The position numbers and the translations under genes were made by a program. Below the pieces are notes generated by a model that worked only from the letters and a program-made list of their open reading frames with translations, had not been told where the DNA came from and did no database searches. This document shows, one piece after another, positions 1,816-61,998 of a stretch of 64,000 nt of DNA (position 1 is the stretch's first letter; each line of letters starts with the position of its first letter). This DNA is from Eledone cirrhosa (lineage: Eukaryota): contig OZ024747.1 in the NCBI GenBank assembly GCA_964016885.1, positions 63,364,001-63,428,000 of the forward strand. Direction: 5' to 3'.

Positions 1816-2384
1816 ATGTGTGTATAAATCAGAGATCATTTATATTACTATATTTTACTTACTACTGCATAGATATCCAAATAAACAACCACATACACAG
1901 AGACAATTGCAGACACACACAATTTCATAATCTCTATATTCCATGCAAATCTTATCCATCCTTATATTTTTGTGTGAAGTCTAGGGAGACGGACATAGTG
2001 TATGTAGCAGAATATAAACTAATATAGCTTCAAATGTAATATTACTTCAAGCAAGTCTGGAAAAGGGCAAGTAATCTTTGTACACATTTGCTATTACCAA
2101 AGCTAATACTGTGATGGATGAACATTGTTTACACCAGGAAAGTTTCTCTCTTAGGTGAAAGCATGTGTAAGGTGATTTTTTTAGAAAAGAAACAGTTATC
2201 CATGCATGTCAGTTTTTCCTCTCTAACTCTCTCTTCTGCCATTAGTCTAGTTCTTGAGAAAGGCAAATGCTGACACAGCATACTTTGATTTTTCAAGCCT
2301 TGGAGCTATGTAAAATAAAGCATGGACCCAGTGCATTCCAGGAATTGAATTCATGAACAGACCATCCTGTCCCTCTTCTTGTCT

Positions 2385-2795
2385 TCTCTCTTCTTCTTCA
2401 CCCACATATTCCTGAGAGGGTCATAGGGACAGAGTCCTCAAACACTCCTTCCTACGGGTCCTGTCAGAAGCAACCATCTCCAACTGGATCTCCAAGTGAG
2501 ACTAGCTGAGCTCATGGATGTTATCCAACCATCTTACTTGGGGTGTACCCTTGGGTCCTCTGTCGGTTGGTTTTGCCCCTAAAATCTGTCCAGTGATTCT
2601 TTCCTGAAACATTCTAACCACATATCCATAGTAACGGACCTGTAATCTCTCAATTCAGAGAAGTAGTGGCTCTACCAGGAGTGACTCTCTGATCTCCGAG
2701 CTACGCACTATATCGAGTAACGTTACTCCAAAGACCCTTAGGAGGGATCCTATTTTGGTTGCTTGTATTTGCAATTATATTCTTCCAGTCATTAC
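2385..2795 (-). mobile_element. RTE-clade LINE 3' fragment (same family as 45850-46350)
   Basis: The reverse complement aligns, including CCCATGACCCTCTCAGGAAT and the GAA tail. Confidence 0.85.
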
Positions 2796-2981
2796 CTGTG
2801 CTTCAGATCTGTCTCTTCATGCTCTTTCTTCACATCTCTCTCCCCCTTTCTCTCATCCCTAATGTATTAATCACCTCATTATAATCCTGCTTTTATCTCT
2901 GTAAAACCAAATTATAAATCTTTAAAAAACTAATCACCATCATTTTTTAATCTCTTGCATGATATTTTAGCTTTCCCTGTA

Positions 2982-3027
<46 letters not shown>

Positions 3028-3435
3028 TATTATTGTCTAGCTTAAATAAAGTATATATACACGTGCAGAGTCTCTATTTCATAACCTTATATATATATGA
3101 TTTTAGTTGGATTACAAGGAATTACTAGTTTCATAATATTTACTAGTAAAGGCATACATCCTCTAATATCACAAATCACATGCGCAAGCCACACAAATCT
3201 AATCATCAGCCATCTTTAAACCAATAGCATTTGAAATACTGGCTATTTTCCATGATAAGATGTTTCAAAAATATAAATAAAGCTTGATGTAAAGGATATA
3301 TATATAGCCCTCCTCCAATGTATTTATTTACTAAATGCATTATTATTTTGTATAATTGCTGAGTATCTCTAGAATAACAACCTCATCATCGTTTAACATC
3401 CCTTTCCCATGTGTATGTATATGTGTGATGATGAT

Positions 3436-3490
<55 letters not shown>

Positions 3491-4707
3491 ATGAGAGAGA
3501 AAGACACACAGAGTGAGAAATGAGTTCATTTATCTTGTGTAGGTGAAAAGAAGCATGCAATGAAAAAAAAGATATTTTTCCAATCAAGAAACTAAATAAT
3601 AATTTAATACACTATATATTTTCCCATATATATTTAATGAGCTATCTCTCCAGACAGTTTCTTTTGGCATATGATTAAATATATAGAGATATGAGAAAGA
3701 GTGAGAGAGGGATACTACTCGAATTATTGTTTATTTGCTTAACTGCAAAGTTTGTCTCTGTGTGTAAACATTTCTGACACCATGTCATACTTGATTACAA
3801 GTGACTGCCAAGAATGATATCATCATCATTATTATTTTATGTCTGCTTTCTATAATGACATGGAATGGATCTGGTGCCTTGTCTTAGACAAGACAAACAG
3901 GAGATAAACGTCTAGCTCATAAATTCCAGATGTTGTTTGGTTGCTACAGATAGATGCCCTTACTAAGCCCAACCACTTTACAGAATGCACAGTATAAATT
4001 TTGTGGTATAAGCATTAAATATATATATATACTTATGGCAAACATGTTAACTAAATGGAGTTGCTTATGCAATGCGCCAATCAGTAAATAATGATGCAAT
4101 TTGATTCAAGCACTCAACACCATATTTTTTCTTTCAAATATGATTTGTCAGTCAGAGTATATGTATGTATATATCCATATGTGGTTGATGGCAGAGAAAA
4201 AGTATTACTCAATACCTAAGTAGAGTTTTAATTTTGATTTATATTAAAGTTAAGATATGAGTCTTGTTACTCTGTAGTGTTGCATGTTTATCACATATAC
4301 AGATACATACACAAAAGTAAACATAGTGAAAGACACACATACAGGTAACTGATACTAGCATAGAAAAATGGATATTAAACGGTGATGATGATGATATGAT
4401 ATGCTTCAACGCAGAAGGCATTAGTCAACATGTGGCTAGAGTAGAACTTACATGCCTAATTTGCTGTGCAGTGGGACTGAATCAAGAACAATGTATTTGA
4501 AATTTGAACTCTTTAACCACACAACCACATATGTTCTCTACCATTAAGTTTATGATCTTTTATTCTTTATATAAATATATATATTCCATTCATGTCTGAC
4601 ATAATACAACTTAAAGTTTTTCCATGTTTTTCTGTTTATTAACAAACAGCAGTTGTAGTTAAACTGAATATATAATTATTGAGTTTATTATGTGAATATA
4701 TATATAA

Positions 4708-5030
4708 GGCTTAGTGGTTAGAGCATCAGGCTTACAATTGTGAGGTTATGAGTTCGATTCTCGGACTGAGCTTTGCATTGTCTTTTTGAGCAAGACACTT
4801 TACTTCACATTGCTCCATTTTACTAATCTGTAGAAATAGGTTGTGATGTCAGCTGTATCAGCTATTGATCTTCCCTTGGATATCATCAGTGGCATGGAGA
4901 GGGGAGACTGGCAAGCATGGGTGATTGCTGGTCTTCCACAAACAACCTTGCCCGGACTTGTGCTTTGGAGGGGAACTTTCTAGGTGCAAATCCCATAGTC
5001 ATTCATGGCTGAAGGGGGTCTTTACCCTTT
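4708..5030 (+). mobile_element. SINE family C (family A head and core, different tail)
   Basis: Shares the tRNA head and TTGAGCAAGACACTT core, then continues GGAGAGGGGAGACTGG...GTCTTTACCCTTT. A second copy is at 25270-25598. Confidence 0.8.
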
Positions 5031-6219
5031 ACTCATATATAAATTAGTGAGCACAACATCAAAATCGTTAGCATTTCAAATATATATTAAGTTATTTATA
5101 TGCGCAGTTATAACCAAGAAATGGGAATAAAGTCTACAGGATTTAACTCTTTTAATGCCAACCTGCCCAAAACAGCCTCTGGTTCTATGAAACAAAATCA
5201 CCAATCTTATAGGGTTCCTATTTAAATTAAAGTCTTTCCACATTATTTGATATAAGAACCTTGTGTTAACCCTTTAGCATTTAAACCAGCCATATCCGGC
5301 CAGAATTCTCTCACCTCTTTCTGTTCAAACCAGCTGCTCATACTGATGTTAAGGTATTGTTCTCAAAATAAATAATATCAAAATCTCATGGATTCGATAT
5401 TATGTGAGGTAAAGCTTTTACCATGGAAGTATAATAGTAAATATAGATTAATGTAAATGGTAAAGTCTTAAATTATGTTAGAAATATCATCTTGAGAACA
5501 GAATACTTAATAATTTGAGTAAATCCTTTCAAATTTATCTTTAAATAGTTGCAATAGGAATATGGTAACAACTGAGTTAAAGACCACCGTCTAGTTACTT
5601 TTGTTTATATGTGAATGAAATACTTTTAGTTAATTTACCCTGTTCAGTTAATTAGTTTATGTATTCCTACCGGGTTTACAATAAATAGTTTAATGTATGG
5701 TTAACTTATTAATTCTCTAGAGTAATATTTAATATAAATACATCCATCATAAATGTTTACCACATATGTATATCTTGATCTTATATAAATATTTAATCTA
5801 TACACCATGTATGTTTTTTTTGTTACATCTGTACATCCTCATCATTGTCCATTTTGCCTGCTAGCAACAAGTATTTAAATTAATAGATCTTTGAGTAAAA
5901 CATTCTTGAATGAGAACTCAACAAAACTAGAAAGTTTTATATTTTTATGATCGATATTCTACGAAATATACTTTTAACGTGAAAATGTTTTATCAATACC
6001 AAATTTATTCTTAGAAATATCGAGAAATATAATTTATTAGGATATTTATTGATATTGTAGCATAGTTTCAGTAGGGACCACAGTGCTATATCAGCCATAA
6101 TAACAATTTTTTCCATATATTATTTTGACAAAAAGTCGCACATATTATATATAAATAAATATATATATATATATATATACGATATTACTAAATGGAAACT
6201 ATATTTATAAAACCATATT

Positions 6220-6284
6220 TATTTCATTATATATATTTCAAGGATACCAAGTTACATTATGGTATGCCTTCATCAGACAAAATA
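6220..6284 (-). ncRNA. Minimal type I hammerhead ribozyme (intact core)
   Basis: Minus strand reads UAUUUUGU-CUGAUGA-AGGCAUACCA(loop)UGGUAUCCUU-GAAA-UAUAUA-UA|AUGAAAUA. Stem I is 8 bp (2 GU), stem II is 10 bp (1 mismatch), stem III is short and palindromic, and the cleavage site is AUA. Confidence 0.75.
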
Positions 6285-9200
6285 CAATATATAACAGTTT
6301 TATAAATAGACATTGACGTACCCCTTTAAAAATTGACCGTTGTTTTTGGAGGCCATCAGGATATATATATAGCTACAGATACAAAAAGCATATTATTATT
6401 ATTGACAGTATCGGTAGAGCATCAGAAACCATGCTTTGCAGCATAAAGTTAAGTCCCTTTATATTCTAAGTTAAAATCCCTCTGAGGTTAGCTTTGTCTT
6501 TCATCCTTATGGAGTCGATAAAATGATGTACCAGTAATGCATTGGGGTTGATTTAATCAACTTTCTCCTCTTTACAAATTGTTGGCCCTGTGTAGAAATC
6601 CTTAATATTATTATTTTATGATATAAATATTTTGGCTGTGATGCCCACCTTTAGTGAAATGGTGAGGTGATGATAACTAGATGTCTGCTCCCAAAGTTTG
6701 TTACAGATTGAAATGTGTAGAAGATAGCATTAGCGGCATTAACCAGGGTGGTGTGCTAGACTTAGCAATTGAAAATAGACTAACATTTCCAATAAATACA
6801 AATTTGTTGAATGTATCTAAAAATTAATATTAATAATAATTTTGATTATTAGAATTTGGTTGTTCTTCTTAATAACTGGGTTATTGGACTTTCAGTTATG
6901 TGTTAAAACCTAACTGCAGCATTTAGGGTTAAAACCTTAGATAAAATATATTATATTTCTTACCATTGAGTATCTTGTAAAATTAAGACTGCATGATCAT
7001 ATTTCTAATGGAATGCAATGATTATATTTCTAAATAATGAAGAAGTTTGAGGGAATAACTAAACTTATTTCATTACAAAGATTCTAATTTAACATGGTTC
7101 TTATATAAAAATAGAAATATATTGGATCTTAATTTAAATATGAGCCCTTTAAAATGTGTAGTTTTGTTTCATAGAAACAGGCTGATATCAAAAGGGTTAA
7201 CCCTTTGAAATACACTCTATTTTAATTAATCAAGGAATTTACTAAAATTATTAGTTATTTCATTATTAAGATAGTTACTTAATGTGAGGTTCTTATATAA
7301 AAATATGTTGGAAGATTTTGATATGAATTGGAAACCTTTAAAATAGGTGGTTACAGTTCATAGAACAAGAGCAGGATTTGGCTGAGTTGGTAGCATTTAG
7401 ATTACTCTATATATACTATTATATTTTTATGGTAAATGATTTATCTTACATAATATCGAATCTATGAGATTTTGATATTATTTACTTCGAAAACAATACC
7501 TTAACATCAGTATAAGTGGCTAGTTACAGCCAGTTTGAACAGGAAGTGGCGAGATATGGCTGGTTTAAATGCTAAAGGGTTTAGGTAATTCATGAACCTG
7601 GCCACAACTGAAACCAGTAAAAGAATAAATTAAAAAAACAACACAACACAATTTGTGATCATGCTAGCTTATTTAGTTTCTATTATCTTATATTTCTATT
7701 GTTTCAAATATACTTTACCATTTCTTTCCTTTATTTGTTATATATCATGTAATTGTGATTTTACTACAAATTACTCTTTGTTATAAGAAGCAACTAATTT
7801 TCTCTGTGCATGATCAGTTCAATAATAATAATGGATGTGAACATTCTTATGATAATGTTTGTTTTTAATCATTTCAGCTATTTCAATATCACTATTTAAT
7901 CATGAGAAAAATACTTCTTCCTATAAACTTTTCAAATGCAAAATATATTGAAATATTAAATTCCAGTTATAACAGCATGCTTAAAAATATTTTCTTTGAG
8001 AGAAAGAATTACTGTTGTATCTATTTCAACAGTTTTTGTAATGCAGCTGCATATGTATGTCTGAAAACAACATTTTGCCTGTTTTTGTTTCTGTAATTGT
8101 TGTTGAATGTATGTCAGTGTGTGCATCTTAGTCAGTAGAATATATTTTTTTTAATTCTTATTTCTCAGAAATTGAAGGCAATGGACATTGTTTTTCTATT
8201 TGCTTTACAAGTTACTTGATATGAAATTATATATTGAAACAGATACATTTTCTACTTTTGGTGCATCATGCTACCAGTTAAAACATGCACTAGTTATGTT
8301 TCATTGCTAAAGCCCTTTTGTCACAGCTTGTGATCTTATCAATGATTTTTGCCCTCAGTGTCTTTTATTTGTCTTAACTTAATTTGAGTAAAGTTGAAAG
8401 CTAGAAGTAGATGAGACACAGTGAGCTAAAGACATTGATAAGGTTACAGATTGTGACCAAAGGACTTTAACAATTAATTTGTTGATAGATGAATTAATTA
8501 CCTAAATAATAAAACCAAAGTGAAAATCAATTGATGTCATCATCATCATCATCATCATATGCCAGTTTTCTCTGACAAAGTACAGCAATAAGTAAATACT
8601 ATACATATATAAAATAATAGAAAAGTGACCCTTAATTGGCATAGAAAAATTATGGAATTTTTATTAATTAAAATTACAGAATAATGAGAAAAGGTCATTA
8701 TTTAAAAAGACTAATTTGCATGTGTGTGTGTGTATCTAGCTGTAGAAACACACACACACACACACACAAAATTTCACTTGCAAAACATGGTTTTATCTAA
8801 ATGACACATGCTCAATAAGCCATCCAATAGAATCAAACTTAGGACCTAGTGGTTGTGAAGCAAACACCTTGACCATTTGGCCATGCTACTTACGCACATG
8901 TACAGTGTCGATCTCCATATGCACACTCATACTCAGACATTATTTCTACCTAGTTCTGCATTTCTTTCTTTTCCTCCAACCCCCTCTCTCGCACACACAC
9001 CCTCTGACACCCACCTACTTTCTCTCTCTCACACACACACACACTCTGTCATACACACTCTTCTCTTACACACACCCTCTTTCACACATACACCTTTCCT
9101 CACACACACCCTTTCACACACACACACCCTCTCACATCCACTCCTTGTTTTCATTTAATTTGTCATCACTTTTTAATTGAAAAAAGATATTAGTTTTAAT

Positions 9201-33908: not shown

Positions 33909-34148
33909 TATATGGTAAATTTCTTTAAGTCATTTGGAAGCCTCGAGCATGCAAATGGGTAAATCTCTGGGTAACAAGATCCGGTGGTGGAGAGAGAGAT
34001 GTAAGTGGGTGTACGTTGAGATGCGTGGCGTGTATAAGATGTGTAGAGGAAAGAAGGAAAGAGCATAAAGGATAAAATAAAAATAACAACACAACTATAT
34101 ATATATATAGATTACACAAGTATCAAAGTTATGTTTAAATCATTTAAT

Positions 34149-34195
34149 CGCTGACATTTGTTTCTTCCAAATTTTAGTTTGGAGTCATCGGAGCA
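34149..34195 (-). ncRNA. Degenerate minimal hammerhead (core CCGAUGA)
   Basis: GCU-CCGAUGA-c-UCCAAA(loop)UUUGGA-a-GAAA-CAAAUG-UC|AGC, with a GUC triplet and one core substitution. Confidence 0.5.
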
Positions 34196-34594
34196 TTAAC
34201 AATGTTTGTACATATAATTAACCTCCTATTCAACTGAAGAATCATATAGATACATATATATTGATGTTGTGAACAACAGTTTAGTATATATAGGGTGTAA
34301 TGTATGCGACATATATTATACGAGAATTGTACAATAATTCAAATTCAAGTTAAAGTTAAAATTAAAAGTACAGAGTGGAATACAAGTGACAGATAATACA
34401 AGAGAATAGTCTAATAATTAAAGAAGCAATGTGAAAGGAGTATACAAGGGTGTAGAGATTGTACATGCGTTAGTCATATATTACTGCTCTGTAAAACAAC
34501 TGATGATCTTACATTGAGCTATTTCTCTTACTGGTAATAAGGTAGTAATAAATTACTAACCTTCCCTGTTTATAGTTGTTTATATAGTATAGTG

Positions 34595-35515: not shown

Positions 35516-36160
35516 TATAATAAACAAGAAAGACGGTTTCATTTGTACATCCCTATTTATTTTGTTACACGTATTTGAAAGACGTAAGGCCTATGTGTTC
35601 TCTTTAGACAAAAATCCAAATGAGATGTAAATATCCATTAATATGTTATCAGTCATACATGTTATTCCCTTTGCCGACCAGTAAGCATATGTCCGAAATT
35701 CTCAAGTAGCAGTTCTTATATGTGTGGGAGATAGATATTCCAATTGGTGTTGCTGCTTGTGAACTGGCTAGGGTTTCAACTTACCAGATTGGTTGCTTGA
35801 TTCTTAGTGAGGCATGTATGAACTGTTTACATTGCCATTCATTGTTCCCTCCCTGTGTCTGTATGTCCATTGGTTTATCTCATTATGGTAATGGTGTTAT
35901 CCCTGTTATTCAAGTTGCTGTTTAATCTATCAGTGCTCATGTGCTTGCTATTGTGAGTTATCTCTTTATGTTTAATTCCTAGATTTCTATTGTTAATTTT
36001 CACTATATTCTGGGCTATGCTTTTGGTTGTCGAGTAAGAAAGTTTAATTGTGTATCGATTAAATATTTGACTGTATTTAATCGACACCATTAACATAAAT
36101 GAGATAAACCAACGGGCACACAGATACAGGGATGGAACAATAAATGGTAACGTAAATAAT

Positions 36161-36558: not shown

Positions 36559-36926
36559 AACCTAAATAATGTTAAATACACCACCAAATAATTAATTAAA
36601 CATTCCTTAATATATGGATGCATTATAATATCAGCATCAAAGTACAAATATCTAAAATTAGAATTAGTATTTAAGTGAATAGAATCTAGTATAAAAAAAT
36701 AAAAAAATAAACTAACAGTTCAATCATGCCTCACCAAGAATCAAGCAACCAATCTGGTAAGTTGATACCCTAGCCAGTTCACAAGCAGCAACGCCAATTG
36801 GAATATCTATCTCCCACACTTATAAGAACTGCTCTTTGAGAATTTCGGACATATGCTTACTGATCAGCAGAGGGTATAACACATATGACCGGTCACAAAT
36901 CAATGGATATTTACAGCTCATTTGGA

Positions 36927-36999
36927 TTTTTGTTTGAAGAGAACACGTAGGGCAGTTGTTATACAATTACCTTATGTCTTTGAAATACATATAACAAAA
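36927..36999 (+). ncRNA. Degenerate hammerhead in the 3' terminal repeat of the Penelope-like element (second copy 35560-35613, - strand)
   Basis: UUUUGU-UUGAAGA-long stem II-GAAA-UACAUA-UA|ACAAAA. The other arm has CUAAAGA...AAA-UACGUG-UA|ACAAAA, so the consensus restores CUGAAGA...GAAA-UACGUA-UA. Confidence 0.6.
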
Positions 37000-37292
37000 T
37001 AAATAGCGATGTACAAATGTAACAATCTTTCTTGTTTATTATTATCGGCCACCATGCTTTGCAACATAGAGTTATAGCCCTCTGAGTTCTGAGTTCAAAT
37101 CCGTCAAGGTTAACTTTACCTGTCCTCCTTACAGGGTTGATAAAATAAAGCACCAGTAATGGACTGGAGTAATTGCTGGTCTTGTGCTAAAAGTAAAAAC
37201 ATTATAATAAAACTCCAGATGAACAAAAACCGTGGAGTGCTTTAAATCTGTTAAGAAAAAGTCGGCAGATTTTCAATCAACCAACTTTCTTC

Positions 37293-38130: not shown

Positions 38131-38781
38131 TCCTTGAATCTCAGTCATTGATGTTGGTTAACTGGAAAGTCCGTTGGATTGAATATCAAGCCACTACCTG
38201 CAGCCTCAGATATTCAGGACGTATCGGAGGGTTCTTGCTGTTCCAAGCAAGCATGCCTTTTGAAGCGTTCCAAAAAGCGTGAAGGGGCCGATTTTCTTTA
38301 ACCATCCCTGGAAACCTTTGGAGATAGTCCCCAGTGCGCCTATGACAATCGGGATCACTTTGACTTCATGGCAGTTCGAAATCCTTTTCACCTCCCACTT
38401 TAGGTCCTGGTATCGGTTAATTTTCTCCCTCTCCTTCTCTTGCACTCTCGTGTCGAACGGGCAGGCCACATCCACAATCAGGCACGATCTTTTTTCTTTG
38501 TCCACAACCACCAGGTCAGGTCTATTGTGTTCCAGTTTTTTGTCCGTCTGTATCCTAAAATCCCACAGCACCTTCACCTGACTGTTCTCCATCACCGCCT
38601 CTGGCCTATGCTCATACCATTTCTCAGAATGTGGTAGATTGTTTACTTTGCACAGGTGCCAGTGGATCACCCTGCCCATCACATCGTGTCTCCAGCCCTT
38701 ATAGTGGGTCTGGGCTAGGTGTTTACACTCGGACACAATGTGAGCCACAGTCTCCTCTCTCTCTCCACAGATCCTGCAAAA
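38131..38781 (-). mobile_element. 5'-truncated R4/Dong-clade non-LTR retrotransposon inserted in (TAA)n
   Basis: Frame reads FCRICGEREETVAHIVSEC (CCHC knuckle), RHD, WD..IQTD, NRPDLVVVDK..IVDVACPFD (PD..D restriction-like endonuclease), then a short 3' UTR. (ATT)n arrays lie on both sides. Confidence 0.9.
38206..38781 (-). CDS. C-terminal zinc knuckle plus restriction-like endonuclease of the R4/Dong element (uninterrupted fragment)
   Basis: The 180-aa track ORF (38206-38748) extends upstream without a stop to the truncation point. Confidence 0.8.
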   Translation of the reverse strand, partial: FCRICGEREETVAHIVSECKHLAQTHYKGWRHDVMGRVIHWHLCKVNNLPHSEKWYEHRPEAVMENSQVKVLWDFRIQTDKKLEHNRPDLVVVDKEKRSCLIVDVACPFDTRVQEKEREKINRYQDLKWEVKRISNCHEVKVIPIVIGALGTISKGFQGWLKKIGPFTLFGTLQKACLLGTARTLRYVLNI

Positions 38782-38785
38782 GATA

Positions 38786-38837
<52 letters not shown>

Positions 38838-40019: not shown

Positions 40020-40319
40020 ATAGTGACGAAACATAAGTCAATTGCATGAACTCATAATCCGTTATTTACTGCTATATATATTTCGATGATAGCCATTGTA
40101 TGGCTATGACCTTATCAGGCAGTTAGTAAGTTCTTAGAGCCTTGGGACATATGTCCCAAGGCTCTGAAACCATCAACACCAAAAACCCAGAGCTGGCATA
40201 TCTAAGAACTTACTAACTGCCTGATGAGGTCATAGCCATACCATGGCTATCATCGAAATATATATAACAGTAAATAAAGGATTATGAGTTCATGCAATTG
40301 ACTTATGTTTCGTCACTAT
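40020..40319. repeat. Long inverted repeat (~119-bp arms) with an internal 30-bp perfect palindrome
   Basis: Arms are 40020-40138 and 40201-40319; AGAGCCTTGGGACAT|ATGTCCCAAGGCTCT is at 40136-40165. Confidence 0.95.
40216..40271 (+). ncRNA. Minimal hammerhead ribozyme in the right arm of a fold-back element (inverted copy at 40068-40123, - strand)
   Basis: ACUGC-CUGAUGA-GGUCAUAGCCAU(acc)AUGGCUAUCAUC-GAAA-UAUAUA-UA|ACAGU. The inverted copy has a perfect stem I (ACUGC/GCAGU) but a CUGAUAA core. Confidence 0.7.
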
Positions 40320-40434: not shown

Positions 40435-40612
40435 TGTAATAAACAACATAAGATAATTAATTCATTTTCCAGTGGTTTCTTGAAGGCAAATATTTATGTC
40501 TGTCTTCATTCATCAGAAAAATAATATTATGAATGAAGACAGACATAAATATCTGTCTTCAAGAAACCACTGGTAAATGAAATAATTATCTTATGTTGTT
40601 TATTATATAACT
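40430..40612. repeat. Long inverted repeat (~84-bp arms)
   Basis: 40430-40513 vs 40529-40612. Confidence 0.95.
40464..40522 (-). ncRNA. Hammerhead-like motif, probably inactive (CUG at the cleavage triplet)
   Basis: AUUUUU-CUGAUGA-a-UGAAGACAGA(loop)UUUGCCUUCA-a-GAAA-CCAC-UG|GAAAAU. Stem II is a perfect 10 bp in the opposite arm. Confidence 0.5.
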
Positions 40613-42122
40613 AAAAAGCTCTGTAGCCTACATAGAGCACTCTCTTTTTCTTTACCTTTCCTACGGAAATACTTCATTTATATATATATATATATATATA
40701 TAGATATATAGATATCGGTATATATAGGTATATATAAATATATGTTCCTATAAAAATGAGAAAACTCATCGCTAGAACACGCATTAAAGTAGCCAAATGC
40801 TGTCAATGACAGCAATGGGCAAAATGCCTCTAAGGACAGAGACCAGTGGCTAGTGTTCACTAGAGAGATGCTCCATAAGCTGGGCAACAGGCAGATGAAA
40901 TAGAGAAAAGGTTGAAAGAGGAGAAGGACAAGTGTGTTCGCACATAGAATTGACTGGAAGAAATAAAGAAATGCGATTCACAAGACAAGTTCACACACAC
41001 ACACTCACATCTTGAAACCAGCAAAATGGCACTGCATGATATAATTTAATTGATGTTACCATTTTGAAATGCAACAGAAAAATATCTCTTTCTGCTGGCA
41101 TGGTGTGTATGTGATAAAACAAACAGCACAGGTAGAAGGATGAAAGAAGACAAATAAAATAAAATAATGTGATAATGCACAAGCTGTTGTGTCTATCCTA
41201 ATTAGAAAGCTAATCATAGCTATGATTAAGTTTCTTTAATAAATATTGTTGTCTCTGATCGAGATGAAGCAACAATGTATTTAAATTCAGCACAGGTGTT
41301 AAAACAGCCACAGCTGTCAATGACAGTGACGGGCAAAAATGCTTCAGAGAACAGAGACCTGTGGTTGGCAGAGAGACAATCCACAAGGTGAATGACAGGC
41401 AAATGAAGTATAGAAAAGATTGAAAGAGGAGGAGGACAAGGAGAAGTTGGATATATAAATAAACTTACAAAAAACTTCATATGGCCTTCACTGTACTTAA
41501 TATTCTATAATGTGCCTTTCTGTCATCATCATCATCATCGTTTAACGGCTATCTTCCATGCTAGCATGCGTTAGACGGGAATTGTCCCAGTTGAGGCAAG
41601 ATTGATTGGGTGACCATGTTTCGCACATGTATCTGGCAGGTTTTCTATGGCTGGATGCCCTTCCTAACACCAATCACATTTACAGTGTATTATTTATACA
41701 TTTTTTTTCTCACACATAGATGTGTGTGTATATATATATATATATATTGTTGGGCCCTTCAATGAGAAAGTCTGTCCATAGAATTAATATGCAAGTATAT
41801 GGGCCTTCCAAAGACACATGTACCCTTAATATAATTCTCAGGGAGATTGTGTGACACACTGAGTAACATAACTAACCTCTTGAATTACAAGTAACATTTA
41901 GTTGAGTGAACTGGAGTAAATTTAAATGGAGTGTTTTGCTCCACGAAACAAAGTTCCAATTAATCTGATAATTGAGCCGAATATTCTAATCAATAAGCTA
42001 TGTTCCCTCACACATACACACACATATATAAAATTATATATATATATGTGCGTGTGTACTTACATACACACACATATGTATATATAACTGTTAAATTTTT
42101 GGTTTGTAAGCAGAATGTAACC

Positions 42123-52523: not shown

Positions 52524-52864
52524 GGAGGCACATGGCTTAGTGGTTAGAGCATTCGCCTTGCAATCGAAAGGTTGTGAGTTCAATTCTCAGACCGGGTAAT
52601 GTGTTGTTTCCTTGAGCAAGACACTTTATTTCACATTGCTCCAGTTAACTCAGCTGTAGAAATGAGATGATAGGGACTGGGGTCCATATCATTCCACTGC
52701 AAAGTGGTCGTGGAGGTGCCATGGCAAAAAAAAGCACCCAGCACTCACTGTAAATGAGGTTGGTAATAGGAAGGGCATCTAGCTGTAGAAATCAAGCCAA
52801 AAATCAGTTCCCGTCCCACCCTTGCAAGCAGGGAAAAAGCGGACGTAAAATGAAATGAAATGAA
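52524..52864 (+). mobile_element. SINE family A, full length
   Basis: GGAGGCACATGGCTTAGTGG head through an (AAATG)n tail. Confidence 0.9.
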
Positions 52865-60546: not shown

Positions 60547-60910
60547 TAGGTAGTATGGTGAAATACTGGTGTTGGTACCAAATTAAGCACTCTATGCATG
60601 GCCACCGGCATATCACAATGATTGCATAACTGCACCAATGATTATGTAAGCATCTGACAAATTCACATGAATAACCATGTTAGAGAAATACATATTATGC
60701 AATAAACAATTATGGTAATTTAATCCCGTCTTAAGTACCATCATTTTACTTCATCACACATTATCACCTACCTGGGATAAACTACTGACATGTAGTGCTT
60801 TGGATCTCTAGGACCTGCTTATGTAACAACTAAGATAAACCACACTATTGTACAACTACATAGACTGTACCGATTGTGTTGTTATTTCTGTTTACCTTTT
60901 ACATATATAT

Positions 60911-61254: not shown

Positions 61255-61311
61255 TATATATTTATACAATATATTAATAAATGGAAATTATATTTATAAA
61301 ACCATAATTAT

Positions 61312-61370
61312 TTTATTATATATATTTCAAGGGCAACCAAGGCAATTTTGGTGCGCTTTCATCAGATAAA
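61312..61370 (-). ncRNA. Minimal type I hammerhead ribozyme (intact core), homologue of 6220-6284
   Basis: Minus strand reads UUUAU-CUGAUGA-AAGCGCACCAA(loop)UUGGUUGCCCUU-GAAA-UAUAUA-UA|AUAAA. The flank at 61271-61330 aligns with 6182-6243. Confidence 0.75.
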
Positions 61371-61998
61371 TTACAAAATATGTTTTATAAATGTTATATA
61401 TTTATATATATATTGTTTTCTATATACACAGATATATATATATATTGTTTTGCTTTTATACTTCTCATTTTGTTTTCTTCCTGAGCTTGTGTGATTAGCG
61501 AAGTGAATTTCTGAATACAAAATGGTTTAAGCAATGTAACCTTGCTAAAACTGTTGTCTTCTGCTACAGCAAAGAATGATCCATTATGATTCTTAGTTCA
61601 GTGTGTTCTCCTAGAAATAGAGAACAACCACTCCTACTTTCAAATCTTAAAGGATATTAAGTAAGATGGGTGGTAAATTTCACATCAAATGCTTTTGTTT
61701 CGTTTATATTTAAAAATATAAATTTTTCAAACGTTATCCTACTGAGGCTAATGTAGAAACATTGTTACAAATGTCTAAAGTAAATCAAAAGAAAATCATC
61801 CTCATATGGGATCTATCCCAATCTATATTGTCTTAGTTCACTTAAGTTGAAAGAAACATTGGTAATGCAATTTTAACAGATATTTTCTTTCTTGTATATA
61901 CTCTTTGTAAAAGAGGAGTGGTCGATAAATAACAAATATGTTGGGTTGTGGATTGTTACTGGTTACACAGAACATAGTATAAATATTACTTGGAATAT

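What the first reader, a model, noticed from the sequence alone, without database searches (positions are those of the whole stretch)
6182..6310. Two hammerhead paralogues 55 kb apart keep the catalytic core and stem pairing despite diverged stem II
Seen: 6220-6284 and 61312-61370 share CUGAUGA, GAAA and UAUAUA-UA exactly. Stem II differs (AGGCAUACCA/UGGUAUCCUU vs AAGCGCACCAA/UUGGUUGCCCUU) yet still pairs, and stem I changes from U-G/G-U to Watson-Crick pairs. Inference: structure was selected during amplification, making these the best candidates for active ribozymes. Predicted minus-strand cleavage is between 6228|6227 and 61317|61316.
Basis: partly seen in the sequence, partly recalled or inferred. 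Interest (0 to 1): 0.75.

Follow-up and report, generated by a model that had tools for sequence, protein, structure and literature searches.

The report
Penelope retrotransposon stubs carrying hammerheads
The two hammerhead-ribozyme motifs are real, but they are short end-pieces of two related Penelope-like jumping genes that left over 26,000 such motifs in this animal genome; the fold was likely kept by selection on the parent elements, and these two stranded copies are probably inert, so this is an ordinary case of a known system.

Summary
Observation confirmed: both minus-strand motifs are minimal type I hammerheads with the predicted cut sites at 6228|6227 and 61317|61316. Each is a solo end-repeat (pLTR) stub, inserted in (TA)n, of a Hydra-clade Penelope-like retrotransposon. 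The two parent families are 66-69% identical in protein. The motif has 26,647 exact genomic matches, so two in 64 kb is unremarkable.

Across 28 hand-picked copies, 14 of 18 pairs change on both sides. With the core left free, 30 of 99 copies vary at N7, against 5 changes in 594 invariant sites. Selection therefore likely acted on the masters.

'Best candidates for active ribozymes' is not supported. Stem III is a 2-bp AU palindrome predicted to need a partner. Copy 2 has a private stem I mismatch. Under 1% of copies begin or end at the cut site. No RNA data were available.

One extra detail: an unpaired C at stem II position 4 (C.C in 89% of matches) persists while neighbouring pairs covary. 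This scan noted the same system, and that C, on other DNA of this genome. Verdict: new members of a known kind.

The parts
6175..6363 (-). Copy 1: solo pLTR stub of Hydra-clade PLE family 1, flanked by (TA)n; 5' end 88 nt upstream of C3, 3' end at the short-tail site (+53 from the cut, TA overlap included)
   Evidence: 98.4% over 193 nt to a natural family-1 junction copy; end mapping; TA run 6142-6179
6220..6284 (-). Copy 1 minimal type I hammerhead: stem I 6284-6277/6227-6220 (8 pairs, two G-U), CUGAUGA 6276-6270, stem II 6269-6240, GAA 6239-6237, palindrome 6236-6229, N17 6228
   Evidence: sequence, coordinates, pair table
6229..6236 (-). 8-nt self-complementary AU palindrome (stem III/loop 3); predicted intermolecular stem III of a dimer
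   Evidence: the homodimer minimum-energy fold pairs it in trans; monomer closure costs 2.2 kcal/mol
6243..6266 (-). Conserved C.C apposition at stem II position 4 (C at 6266 and C at 6243)
   Evidence: 28 of 28 rows in alignment A2, 0 parsimony changes; 23,766 of 26,647 genome matches
61267..61400 (-). Copy 2: shorter solo pLTR stub of Hydra-clade PLE family 2; 5' end 36 nt upstream of C3, 3' end at about +50
   Evidence: 96.4% over 139 nt to a natural family-2 copy; end mapping; family copies
61309..61373 (-). Copy 2 minimal type I hammerhead: CUGAUGA 61365-61359, stem II 61358-61329 with C.C at 61355/61332, N17 61317; private A.A mismatch in stem I at 61371
40050..40289 (.). Third family of the same lineage: inverted pair of pLTR stubs, plus-strand copy with intact core (40201-40289), minus-strand copy with G8 changed to A (40050-40138)
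   Evidence: sequence; model R1 hits at 69.7 and 67.6 bits (the plus copy was in the training set)

Best explanation
Both motifs are minimal type I hammerheads in truncated end-repeat (pLTR) stubs of two Hydra-clade Penelope-like retrotransposon families; the fold was likely selected in the parent elements, where it would cut only as a dimer, probably with help from the element's protein, and these two stranded copies are probably inert. Shown: the full unit is pLTR - RT/GIY-YIG ORF - long 3' UTR - pLTR, with the two hammerheads 4,263 nt apart in one natural copy; insertion into (TA)n; two fixed 3' ends downstream of the ribozyme; clustered 5' ends upstream of it; covariation of stems I and II; core changes confined to N7. 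Inferred: the element's protein nicks a TA repeat and starts reverse transcription internally at about +50 or +140 past the hammerhead on an RNA that is uncut there (or cut and re-ligated). It copies through the ribozyme and usually stops 30-90 nt upstream, leaving stubs like these two. On a transcript carrying two pLTRs, the two AU palindromes would pair into an 8-bp stem III and allow cleavage after A17, which would free unit-length RNA from read-through transcripts or limit the template pool.
For: Full element L061: tandem pLTRs 4,263 nt apart with an RT-EN ORF between. Family 2 element L066 is 66% (217 of 327) and 69% (172 of 251) identical in protein. Hydra-clade motifs present: RWR, DKT, CxCx5C, VVY..YVG, CxxC, CxH, as defined in PMC8557442 section 11. 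Atlas neighbours are eukaryotic clusters carrying RVT_1, HTH_animal or GIY-YIG, scores 0.92-0.94. 3' ends: family 1 at +53 in 19 of 30 and +143 in 9 of 30, 2 run on into the ORF; family 2 at +49 to +56 in 17 of 28, and 11 of 28 run on to about the end of the reference. This matches the two internal RT start sites shown for PAc (PMC11167929). Covariation: 90.1% of 503 cells paired, 14 of 18 pairs change on both sides, 0 of 500 shuffles as high, slid controls 34-48%; RNAalifold recovers stems I and II unaided. Core: of the first 100 listed hits with the 5' core left free (99 distinct; counted by eye), 66 have U7, 15 G7, 13 A7 and 1 C7 with the rest of the core intact, and 4 carry 5 changes at invariant positions; a script on the first 29 gave 20/3/5/0 and 1 defective. 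Copies ending at the cut: at most 248 of 26,647. Copies starting there: 88, against 23,336 intact.
Against: No cleavage assay and no RNA data for this family. Pfam and NCBIfam gave no significant RT or GIY-YIG hit for 4 of 4 ORF pieces each, so clade assignment rests on motifs, architecture and Atlas neighbours, without a phylogeny. Every full-length ORF I read was interrupted (3 of 3 family-1 loci listed and the family-2 locus). Position 10.1-11.1 is A-U here and degenerate across families (paired in 22 of 28, G-C in only 5), unlike the conserved G-C described in PMC4209133. The 28 rows were hand-picked and related, and the GAAA and palindrome columns were fixed by the search pattern, so their invariance is circular. 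The homodimer fold of copy 2 did not give the palindrome helix. The end-mapping sets were the best-scoring copies, not a random sample.
Confidence: 0.88

Rival explanations
1. The copies are efficient monomeric ribozymes: the unpaired C in stem II docks on the long stem I and replaces the usual loop-loop contact, so each transcribed copy can cut its host RNA.
For: The unpaired C sits where canonical 4-bp stem II ends. Stem I extends into a long irregular helix in both families. The C is kept across about ten lineages. Natural hammerheads use peripheral contacts for fast cleavage (PMC6155905 passages).
Against: Stem III is only A-U plus U-A, and closing it is uphill. No conserved partner base or bulge was seen in stem I across lineages (alignment A2). 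Single minimal PLE hammerheads were inactive, and dimers weak (PMC4209133). The PAc hammerhead needed protein.
Confidence: 0.08
2. The fold is kept mainly as a binding or packaging signal for the element's protein, and cleavage is incidental or lost.
For: Copy ends ignore the cut site. Catalytic mutants did not affect PAc insertion in vitro, and no reads ended at its cut site. The 10.1-11.1 pair is degenerate. An invariant unpaired C looks like a recognition mark.
Against: Only N7, the core position known to be free in hammerheads (established knowledge), changes between subfamilies, while C3, U4, G5, A6, G8 and A9 do not. Published Hydra hammerheads from several phyla keep CUGAnGA and GAA with unrelated stems (File S2). 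That pattern follows the catalytic constraints.
Confidence: 0.15
3. The copies are monomers of a non-autonomous non-LTR retrozyme (tandem, circular-RNA-forming repeat).
For: Short non-coding units with type I hammerheads are the retrozyme hallmark, and retrozymes may derive from pLTRs (bioRxiv 10.64898/2026.07.22.740005, first part read).
Against: No tandem array at either site. The stubs are colinear with the ends of protein-coding elements. 15 of 30 family-1 loci continue into the element's 3' UTR.
Confidence: 0.03
4. The pair are locally duplicated paralogues, domesticated for a host function.
For: Same strand and same window; intact cores.
Against: Each is 96-99% identical to many dispersed copies of its own family on other contigs, but only 83% identical to the other. 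The density alone predicts such neighbours. Copy 2 has a stem-breaking private change.
Confidence: 0.02

Closest known systems
Hydra clade of C-terminal-endonuclease Penelope-like elements (Craig et al. 2021, PMC8557442; passages, section 11 and supplementary Files S1/S2 read; includes Hydra-1_Obim of Octopus bimaculoides)
   Same: RT then GIY-YIG; RW(K/R), DKT, CxCx5C linker, CxxC and CxH in the endonuclease; (TA)n target; hammerhead in the pLTR; partial tandems, inverted 5'-truncated copies and an optional tail.
   Different: The unit is about 4.26 kb with a long 3' UTR (published Hydra are mostly under 3 kb). RWR stands for RWK. The tail is about 90 nt rather than 30-40. The hammerhead has a 10-12-bp stem II with a C.C mismatch and an all-AU 8-nt palindrome. 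None of the Hydra hammerheads listed in File S2 has this sequence, so these are families not in that table.
[quoted passage not shown]
   Same: Type I topology, long helix II, tiny palindromic helix III, many sequence families per genome with compensatory changes, mostly solo copies and opposite-strand pairs, predicted dimer mechanism.
   Different: The G10.1-C11.1 pair is not conserved here. Stem I extends into a long helix. Copy number is higher (over 26,000 for one core variant, against about 2,000-9,000 reported). A fixed internal mismatch is present; the paper notes only a mid-helix bulge in D. virilis Penelope.
PAc (Poseidon of Anolis carolinensis) protein-assisted hammerhead and internal RT initiation (Frangieh et al. 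2024, PMC11167929; main text read)
   Same: Two fixed 3' ends that define a tail, AT-rich targets, copies made from RNA not cut at the hammerhead.
   Different: Different clade. In PAc the ORF starts inside the hammerhead; here it starts about 190 nt downstream of the cut. Both 3' ends here overlap short TA runs in the element, whereas PAc initiation was reported as non-homologous to the target.

Membership tests
Hammerhead ribozyme, type I | Core CUGANGA, GAA and UH with stems I-II-III in type I order | tested here: met
   cleavage triplet AUA
Hammerhead ribozyme, type I | Stems I and II supported by covariation | tested here: met
   14 of 18 pairs with changes on both sides; slid controls far lower; rows related and hand-picked; R-scape not available
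Hammerhead ribozyme, type I | Core conserved except N7 when not imposed by the search | tested here: met
   5' core: 30 of 99 vary at N7, 5 changes in 594 invariant sites; the 3' core GAAA was imposed and not tested this way
Hammerhead ribozyme, type I | Canonical G10.1-C11.1 pair and stable monomeric stem III | tested here: not met
   A-U at 10.1-11.1 in both copies, G-C in 5 of 28 rows; stem III is 2 AU pairs, uphill to close; this is the minimal, dimer-type variant
Hammerhead ribozyme, type I | Match to an Rfam hammerhead model | tested here: not met
   no hit for copy 1 at E up to 10; none among the 150 of 201 window hits shown
Hammerhead ribozyme, type I | Site-specific self-cleavage | not testable with these tools
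   needs an in vitro assay or raw RNA reads
Penelope-like element | Single ORF with RT and GIY-YIG between direct pLTRs | tested here: met
   L061, Atlas neighbours; Pfam and NCBIfam silent; ORFs read were interrupted
Penelope-like element | 5' truncation, partial tandems, inverted 5'-truncated copies, optional tail | tested here: met
Hydra clade | RWK-type motif, DKT, CxCx5C linker, CxxC and CxH in EN | tested here: met
   RWR 38, DKT 119, CxCx5C 602 in L061; CxxC and CxH in L062 and L066
Hydra clade | Insertion into (TA)n | tested here: met
   TA runs follow the 3' ends in the listed loci
Hydra clade | Phylogenetic placement with described Hydra proteins | not tested
   reference proteins were not obtained
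Naiad clade | N-terminal GIY-YIG, DKA motif, no canonical hammerhead | tested here: not met
   EN is C-terminal, motif is DKT, hammerhead present
Non-LTR retrozyme | Non-coding head-to-tail tandem units each with a hammerhead | tested here: not met
   no tandem array; stubs colinear with a coding element

The most novel reading that the evidence does not exclude
This hammerhead lineage carries a dedicated switch: the unpaired C at stem II position 4, kept while every neighbouring pair has changed, is the docking or protein-recognition point through which the element's own RT-endonuclease licenses dimer cleavage. The ribozyme would then stay off while the RNA serves as template and fire only at a set step of the transposition cycle. 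Tens of thousands of natural variants give a ready-made mutational scan for the open question of what PLE hammerheads do.
Probability: 0.25. Interest if true: 0.55.

Novelty: new member of a known kind. Interest (0 to 1): 0.2.

Why it matters
As a locus it matters little: hammerheads in pLTRs are described as universal in Hydra-clade elements, and these are two stubs among tens of thousands. As a family dataset it bears on an open question, the role of PLE hammerheads, which PMC8557442 calls unclear. The core evolves as a catalyst should (only N7 changes between subfamilies), yet the inserted copies show that the copied RNA was intact at the cut site. The conserved unpaired C and the AU palindrome give two precise handles for testing protein-assisted, dimer-dependent cleavage.

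Tried and rejected
Rfam: no hammerhead hit; the top hits are AT-microsatellite artefacts. Single-strand folding z-scores: not significant. Naiad, my first guess from the TA target: rejected by domain order and DKT. Pfam and NCBIfam scans of the ORF pieces: nothing significant.

Idea that the cleaved RNA, which ends in an AU run, primes on the (TA)n target: rejected. At most 248 of 26,647 copies have an extended TA run at the cut. In 30 such loci my script called 22 'ends' and 8 'resumes', but it misclassified several; by eye about half are slippage. Idea that cleavage sets the 5' end: rejected, 88 against 23,336; of 30 loci the script scored 26 as truncated and 4 as slippage, and one of the 26 is slippage by eye.

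Expression: no RNA holder listed. Two runs of unknown kind were laid as contigs; they show many family variants and say nothing on expression or ends. L067 held no parent ORF. A test of neutral decay by comparing (16,591 of 26,984 with exact CUGAUGA) was confounded by N7 subfamilies and was not used for that purpose.

Lunse et al. (RNA Biol 14:1499) could not be read; I saw only its title and the review's statement (PMC6765202 passages), and it may already describe internal mismatches in stem II. Literature searches: 'hammerhead ribozyme' + 'C-C mismatch' + 'stem II' gave 0 papers; 'octopus' + 'hammerhead ribozyme' + 'Penelope' gave only PMC8557442. Supplements of the bioRxiv preprint were not seen.

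Full report
1. Observation. Both motifs are present on the minus strand with the shared core and the predicted cut positions. Copy 1 has an 8-pair stem I with tandem G-U/U-G, a 10-step stem II, and GAA followed by an 8-nt AU palindrome and A17. Copy 2 has Watson-Crick pairs at those two stem I positions, two double changes and one single change in stem II, and a bulged U. Both keep C opposite C at the fourth step of stem II. Folding energy alone is not unusual (z from -0.34 to -1.27) and Rfam does not recognise the motif. The case therefore rests on the core and on comparison.

2. What the copies belong to. Searching the own genome (3.0 Gb, animal; likely a cephalopod, which is my inference from recalled repeat types and was not tested) gave many 99%-identical copies of copy 1 (51 matches from 40 scored of 735 candidates) and a separate set of 96-98% copies of copy 2 (57 matches, 40 of 1,218), often as head-to-head inverted pairs. 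Two family-1 hits 4,263 nt apart on one strand enclose an ORF and a long 3' UTR. A family-2 copy lies downstream of a related ORF, 66% and 69% identical. The ORFs show RT motifs followed by a GIY-YIG-type domain and the Hydra-clade marks RWR, DKT, CxCx5C, CxxC and CxH (definitions from PMC8557442 section 11). Atlas neighbours carry RVT_1, HTH_animal or GIY-YIG; Pfam and NCBIfam gave nothing significant. The published table lists a Hydra family from Octopus bimaculoides, with a different hammerhead. Copy 1 (about 190 nt) and copy 2 (about 135 nt) are solo pLTR stubs of these two families.

3. Abundance. The pattern of core, 20-45 nt spacer and GAAA-palindrome has 26,647 exact matches against 36 for the control. 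This is a lower bound, because subfamilies with G7 or A7 are excluded. The expected number per 64 kb is 0.57. A covariance model finds 14 hits at E up to 1 in the window, 8 of them at E below 0.01; three of those were training rows. The 55-kb spacing carries no information.

4. I aligned 28 copies chosen by hand to span about ten subfamilies, from 107 distinct copies extracted. On the hammerhead structure, 90.1% of 503 cells pair, 14 of 18 pairs change on both sides, no shuffle of 500 reaches this, and slid registers give 34-48%. RNAalifold finds stems I and II unaided. The rows are related, so this is not a probability, and the two core boxes were imposed by the search. To remove that circularity for the 5' box I left it free. 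Among the first 100 listed hits (99 distinct, counted by eye), N7 is U in 69, G in 16, A in 13 and C in 1; the G and A forms recur as subfamilies. The six invariant positions show 5 scattered changes in 594 sites, in 4 copies (script check on 29). This is the pattern expected if masters were selected for hammerhead chemistry (N7 being free is established knowledge).

5. Selection on masters, not on these copies. The differences between the two motifs are family differences. Individual copies drift: copy 2 has a private change that opens stem I, the inverted partner at 40050-40138 has lost G8, and even the lineage-invariant Cs are lost in 5-6% of copies each. Copy 1 equals the family majority across the whole hammerhead. 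It is a fair template for an assay, but no better than the other young copies.

6. How it likely works. Stem III of a monomer is two AU pairs and costs 2.2 (copy 1) or 2.9 (copy 2) kcal/mol to close. The predicted homodimer of copy 1 pairs the palindromes into an 8-bp helix; that of copy 2 does not. Published minimal PLE hammerheads were inactive singly and weak as dimers (PMC4209133), and the PAc hammerhead cleaved only with its protein (PMC11167929). Copy ends show what was reverse-transcribed. 3' ends sit at two fixed sites about 50 and 140 nt past the cut, and 5' ends cluster 70-90 nt before C3. At most 0.9% of copies could end at the cut (248 of 26,647), and 88 start there against 23,336 intact. 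Templates were thus uncut or re-ligated; the genome cannot tell these apart. I commit to a dimer-dependent, probably protein-assisted ribozyme that acts on two-pLTR transcripts of the parent element, with solo stubs as by-products of internal RT initiation: about 0.9 for the identity, about 0.7 for real cleavage in the parent, about 0.1 for any function of these two copies.

7. The unpaired C. C.C occurs in 28 of 28 aligned rows with no parsimony change, while the other stem II columns change 1-7 times. Genome-wide it occurs in 23,766 of 26,647; C-G in 163, C with A or U in 1,104, and another base with C in 1,481. One small family has C.A in most listed copies. In family 1 an alternative register with the 5' C bulged is predicted; the 5' C is unpaired either way. 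It is not general to Hydra hammerheads (File S2). I saw it in the listing before any look-up. One paper search found no description, but Lunse et al. could not be read, so novelty is not established. Its role is untested.

8. Verdict. Real feature, known kind: hammerheads in pLTRs of Hydra-clade Penelope-like elements, in families not listed in the table I read. Interest 0.2.

Noticed in passing
window 40050-40289: Head-to-head inverted pair of pLTR stubs of a third family with the same AU palindrome and C.C; the minus-strand copy has G8 changed to A.
   Followed up: partly
window 36914-37018 (+), 35541-35627 (-), 60635-60719 (+), 34130-34211 (-): Older, decayed hammerheads found by model R1 (45.6, 35.4, 29.8, 27.2 bits); the first two belong to one further family and keep C.C.
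   Followed up: no
window 40440-40620: Inverted stub of another hammerhead family with a different 9-nt stem III palindrome, resembling the loop listed for Hydra-1_oBim; it has A, not C, at stem II position 4.
   Followed up: no
window 19311 (+), 20603 (-), 29255 (-), 18307 (-): Further CUGANGA motifs followed by a short hairpin and a GAA(A)-like box; likely stubs of other PLE families.
   Followed up: no
L061 5785 and L066 6157 (element strand): 5' ends of stubs cluster 70-90 nt upstream of C3 in both families (10 of 15 short family-1 copies at -80 to -90; 13 of 26 short family-2 copies at -70 to -81), at a shared 8-nt motif; this may be a transcription start or a cDNA processing site.
   Followed up: partly
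G000 C1, several places: One minor family has C.A in place of C.C in most listed copies, so the 5' C and the unpaired state are more constant than the 3' C; no family with a fixed Watson-Crick pair was seen in the listings.
   Followed up: yes
L061 about 2300-2860: The long 3' UTR holds extended A/T-run inverted and repeated segments that could form large hairpins.
   Followed up: no
window 38206-38787 (-): 193-aa ORF that looks like the C-terminal zinc-knuckle/restriction-like endonuclease end of a non-LTR retrotransposon (label recalled, not searched).
   Followed up: no
window 52533-52590 (+): tRNA-like Rfam hit (35.3 bits, above gathering), probably a SINE head.
   Followed up: no
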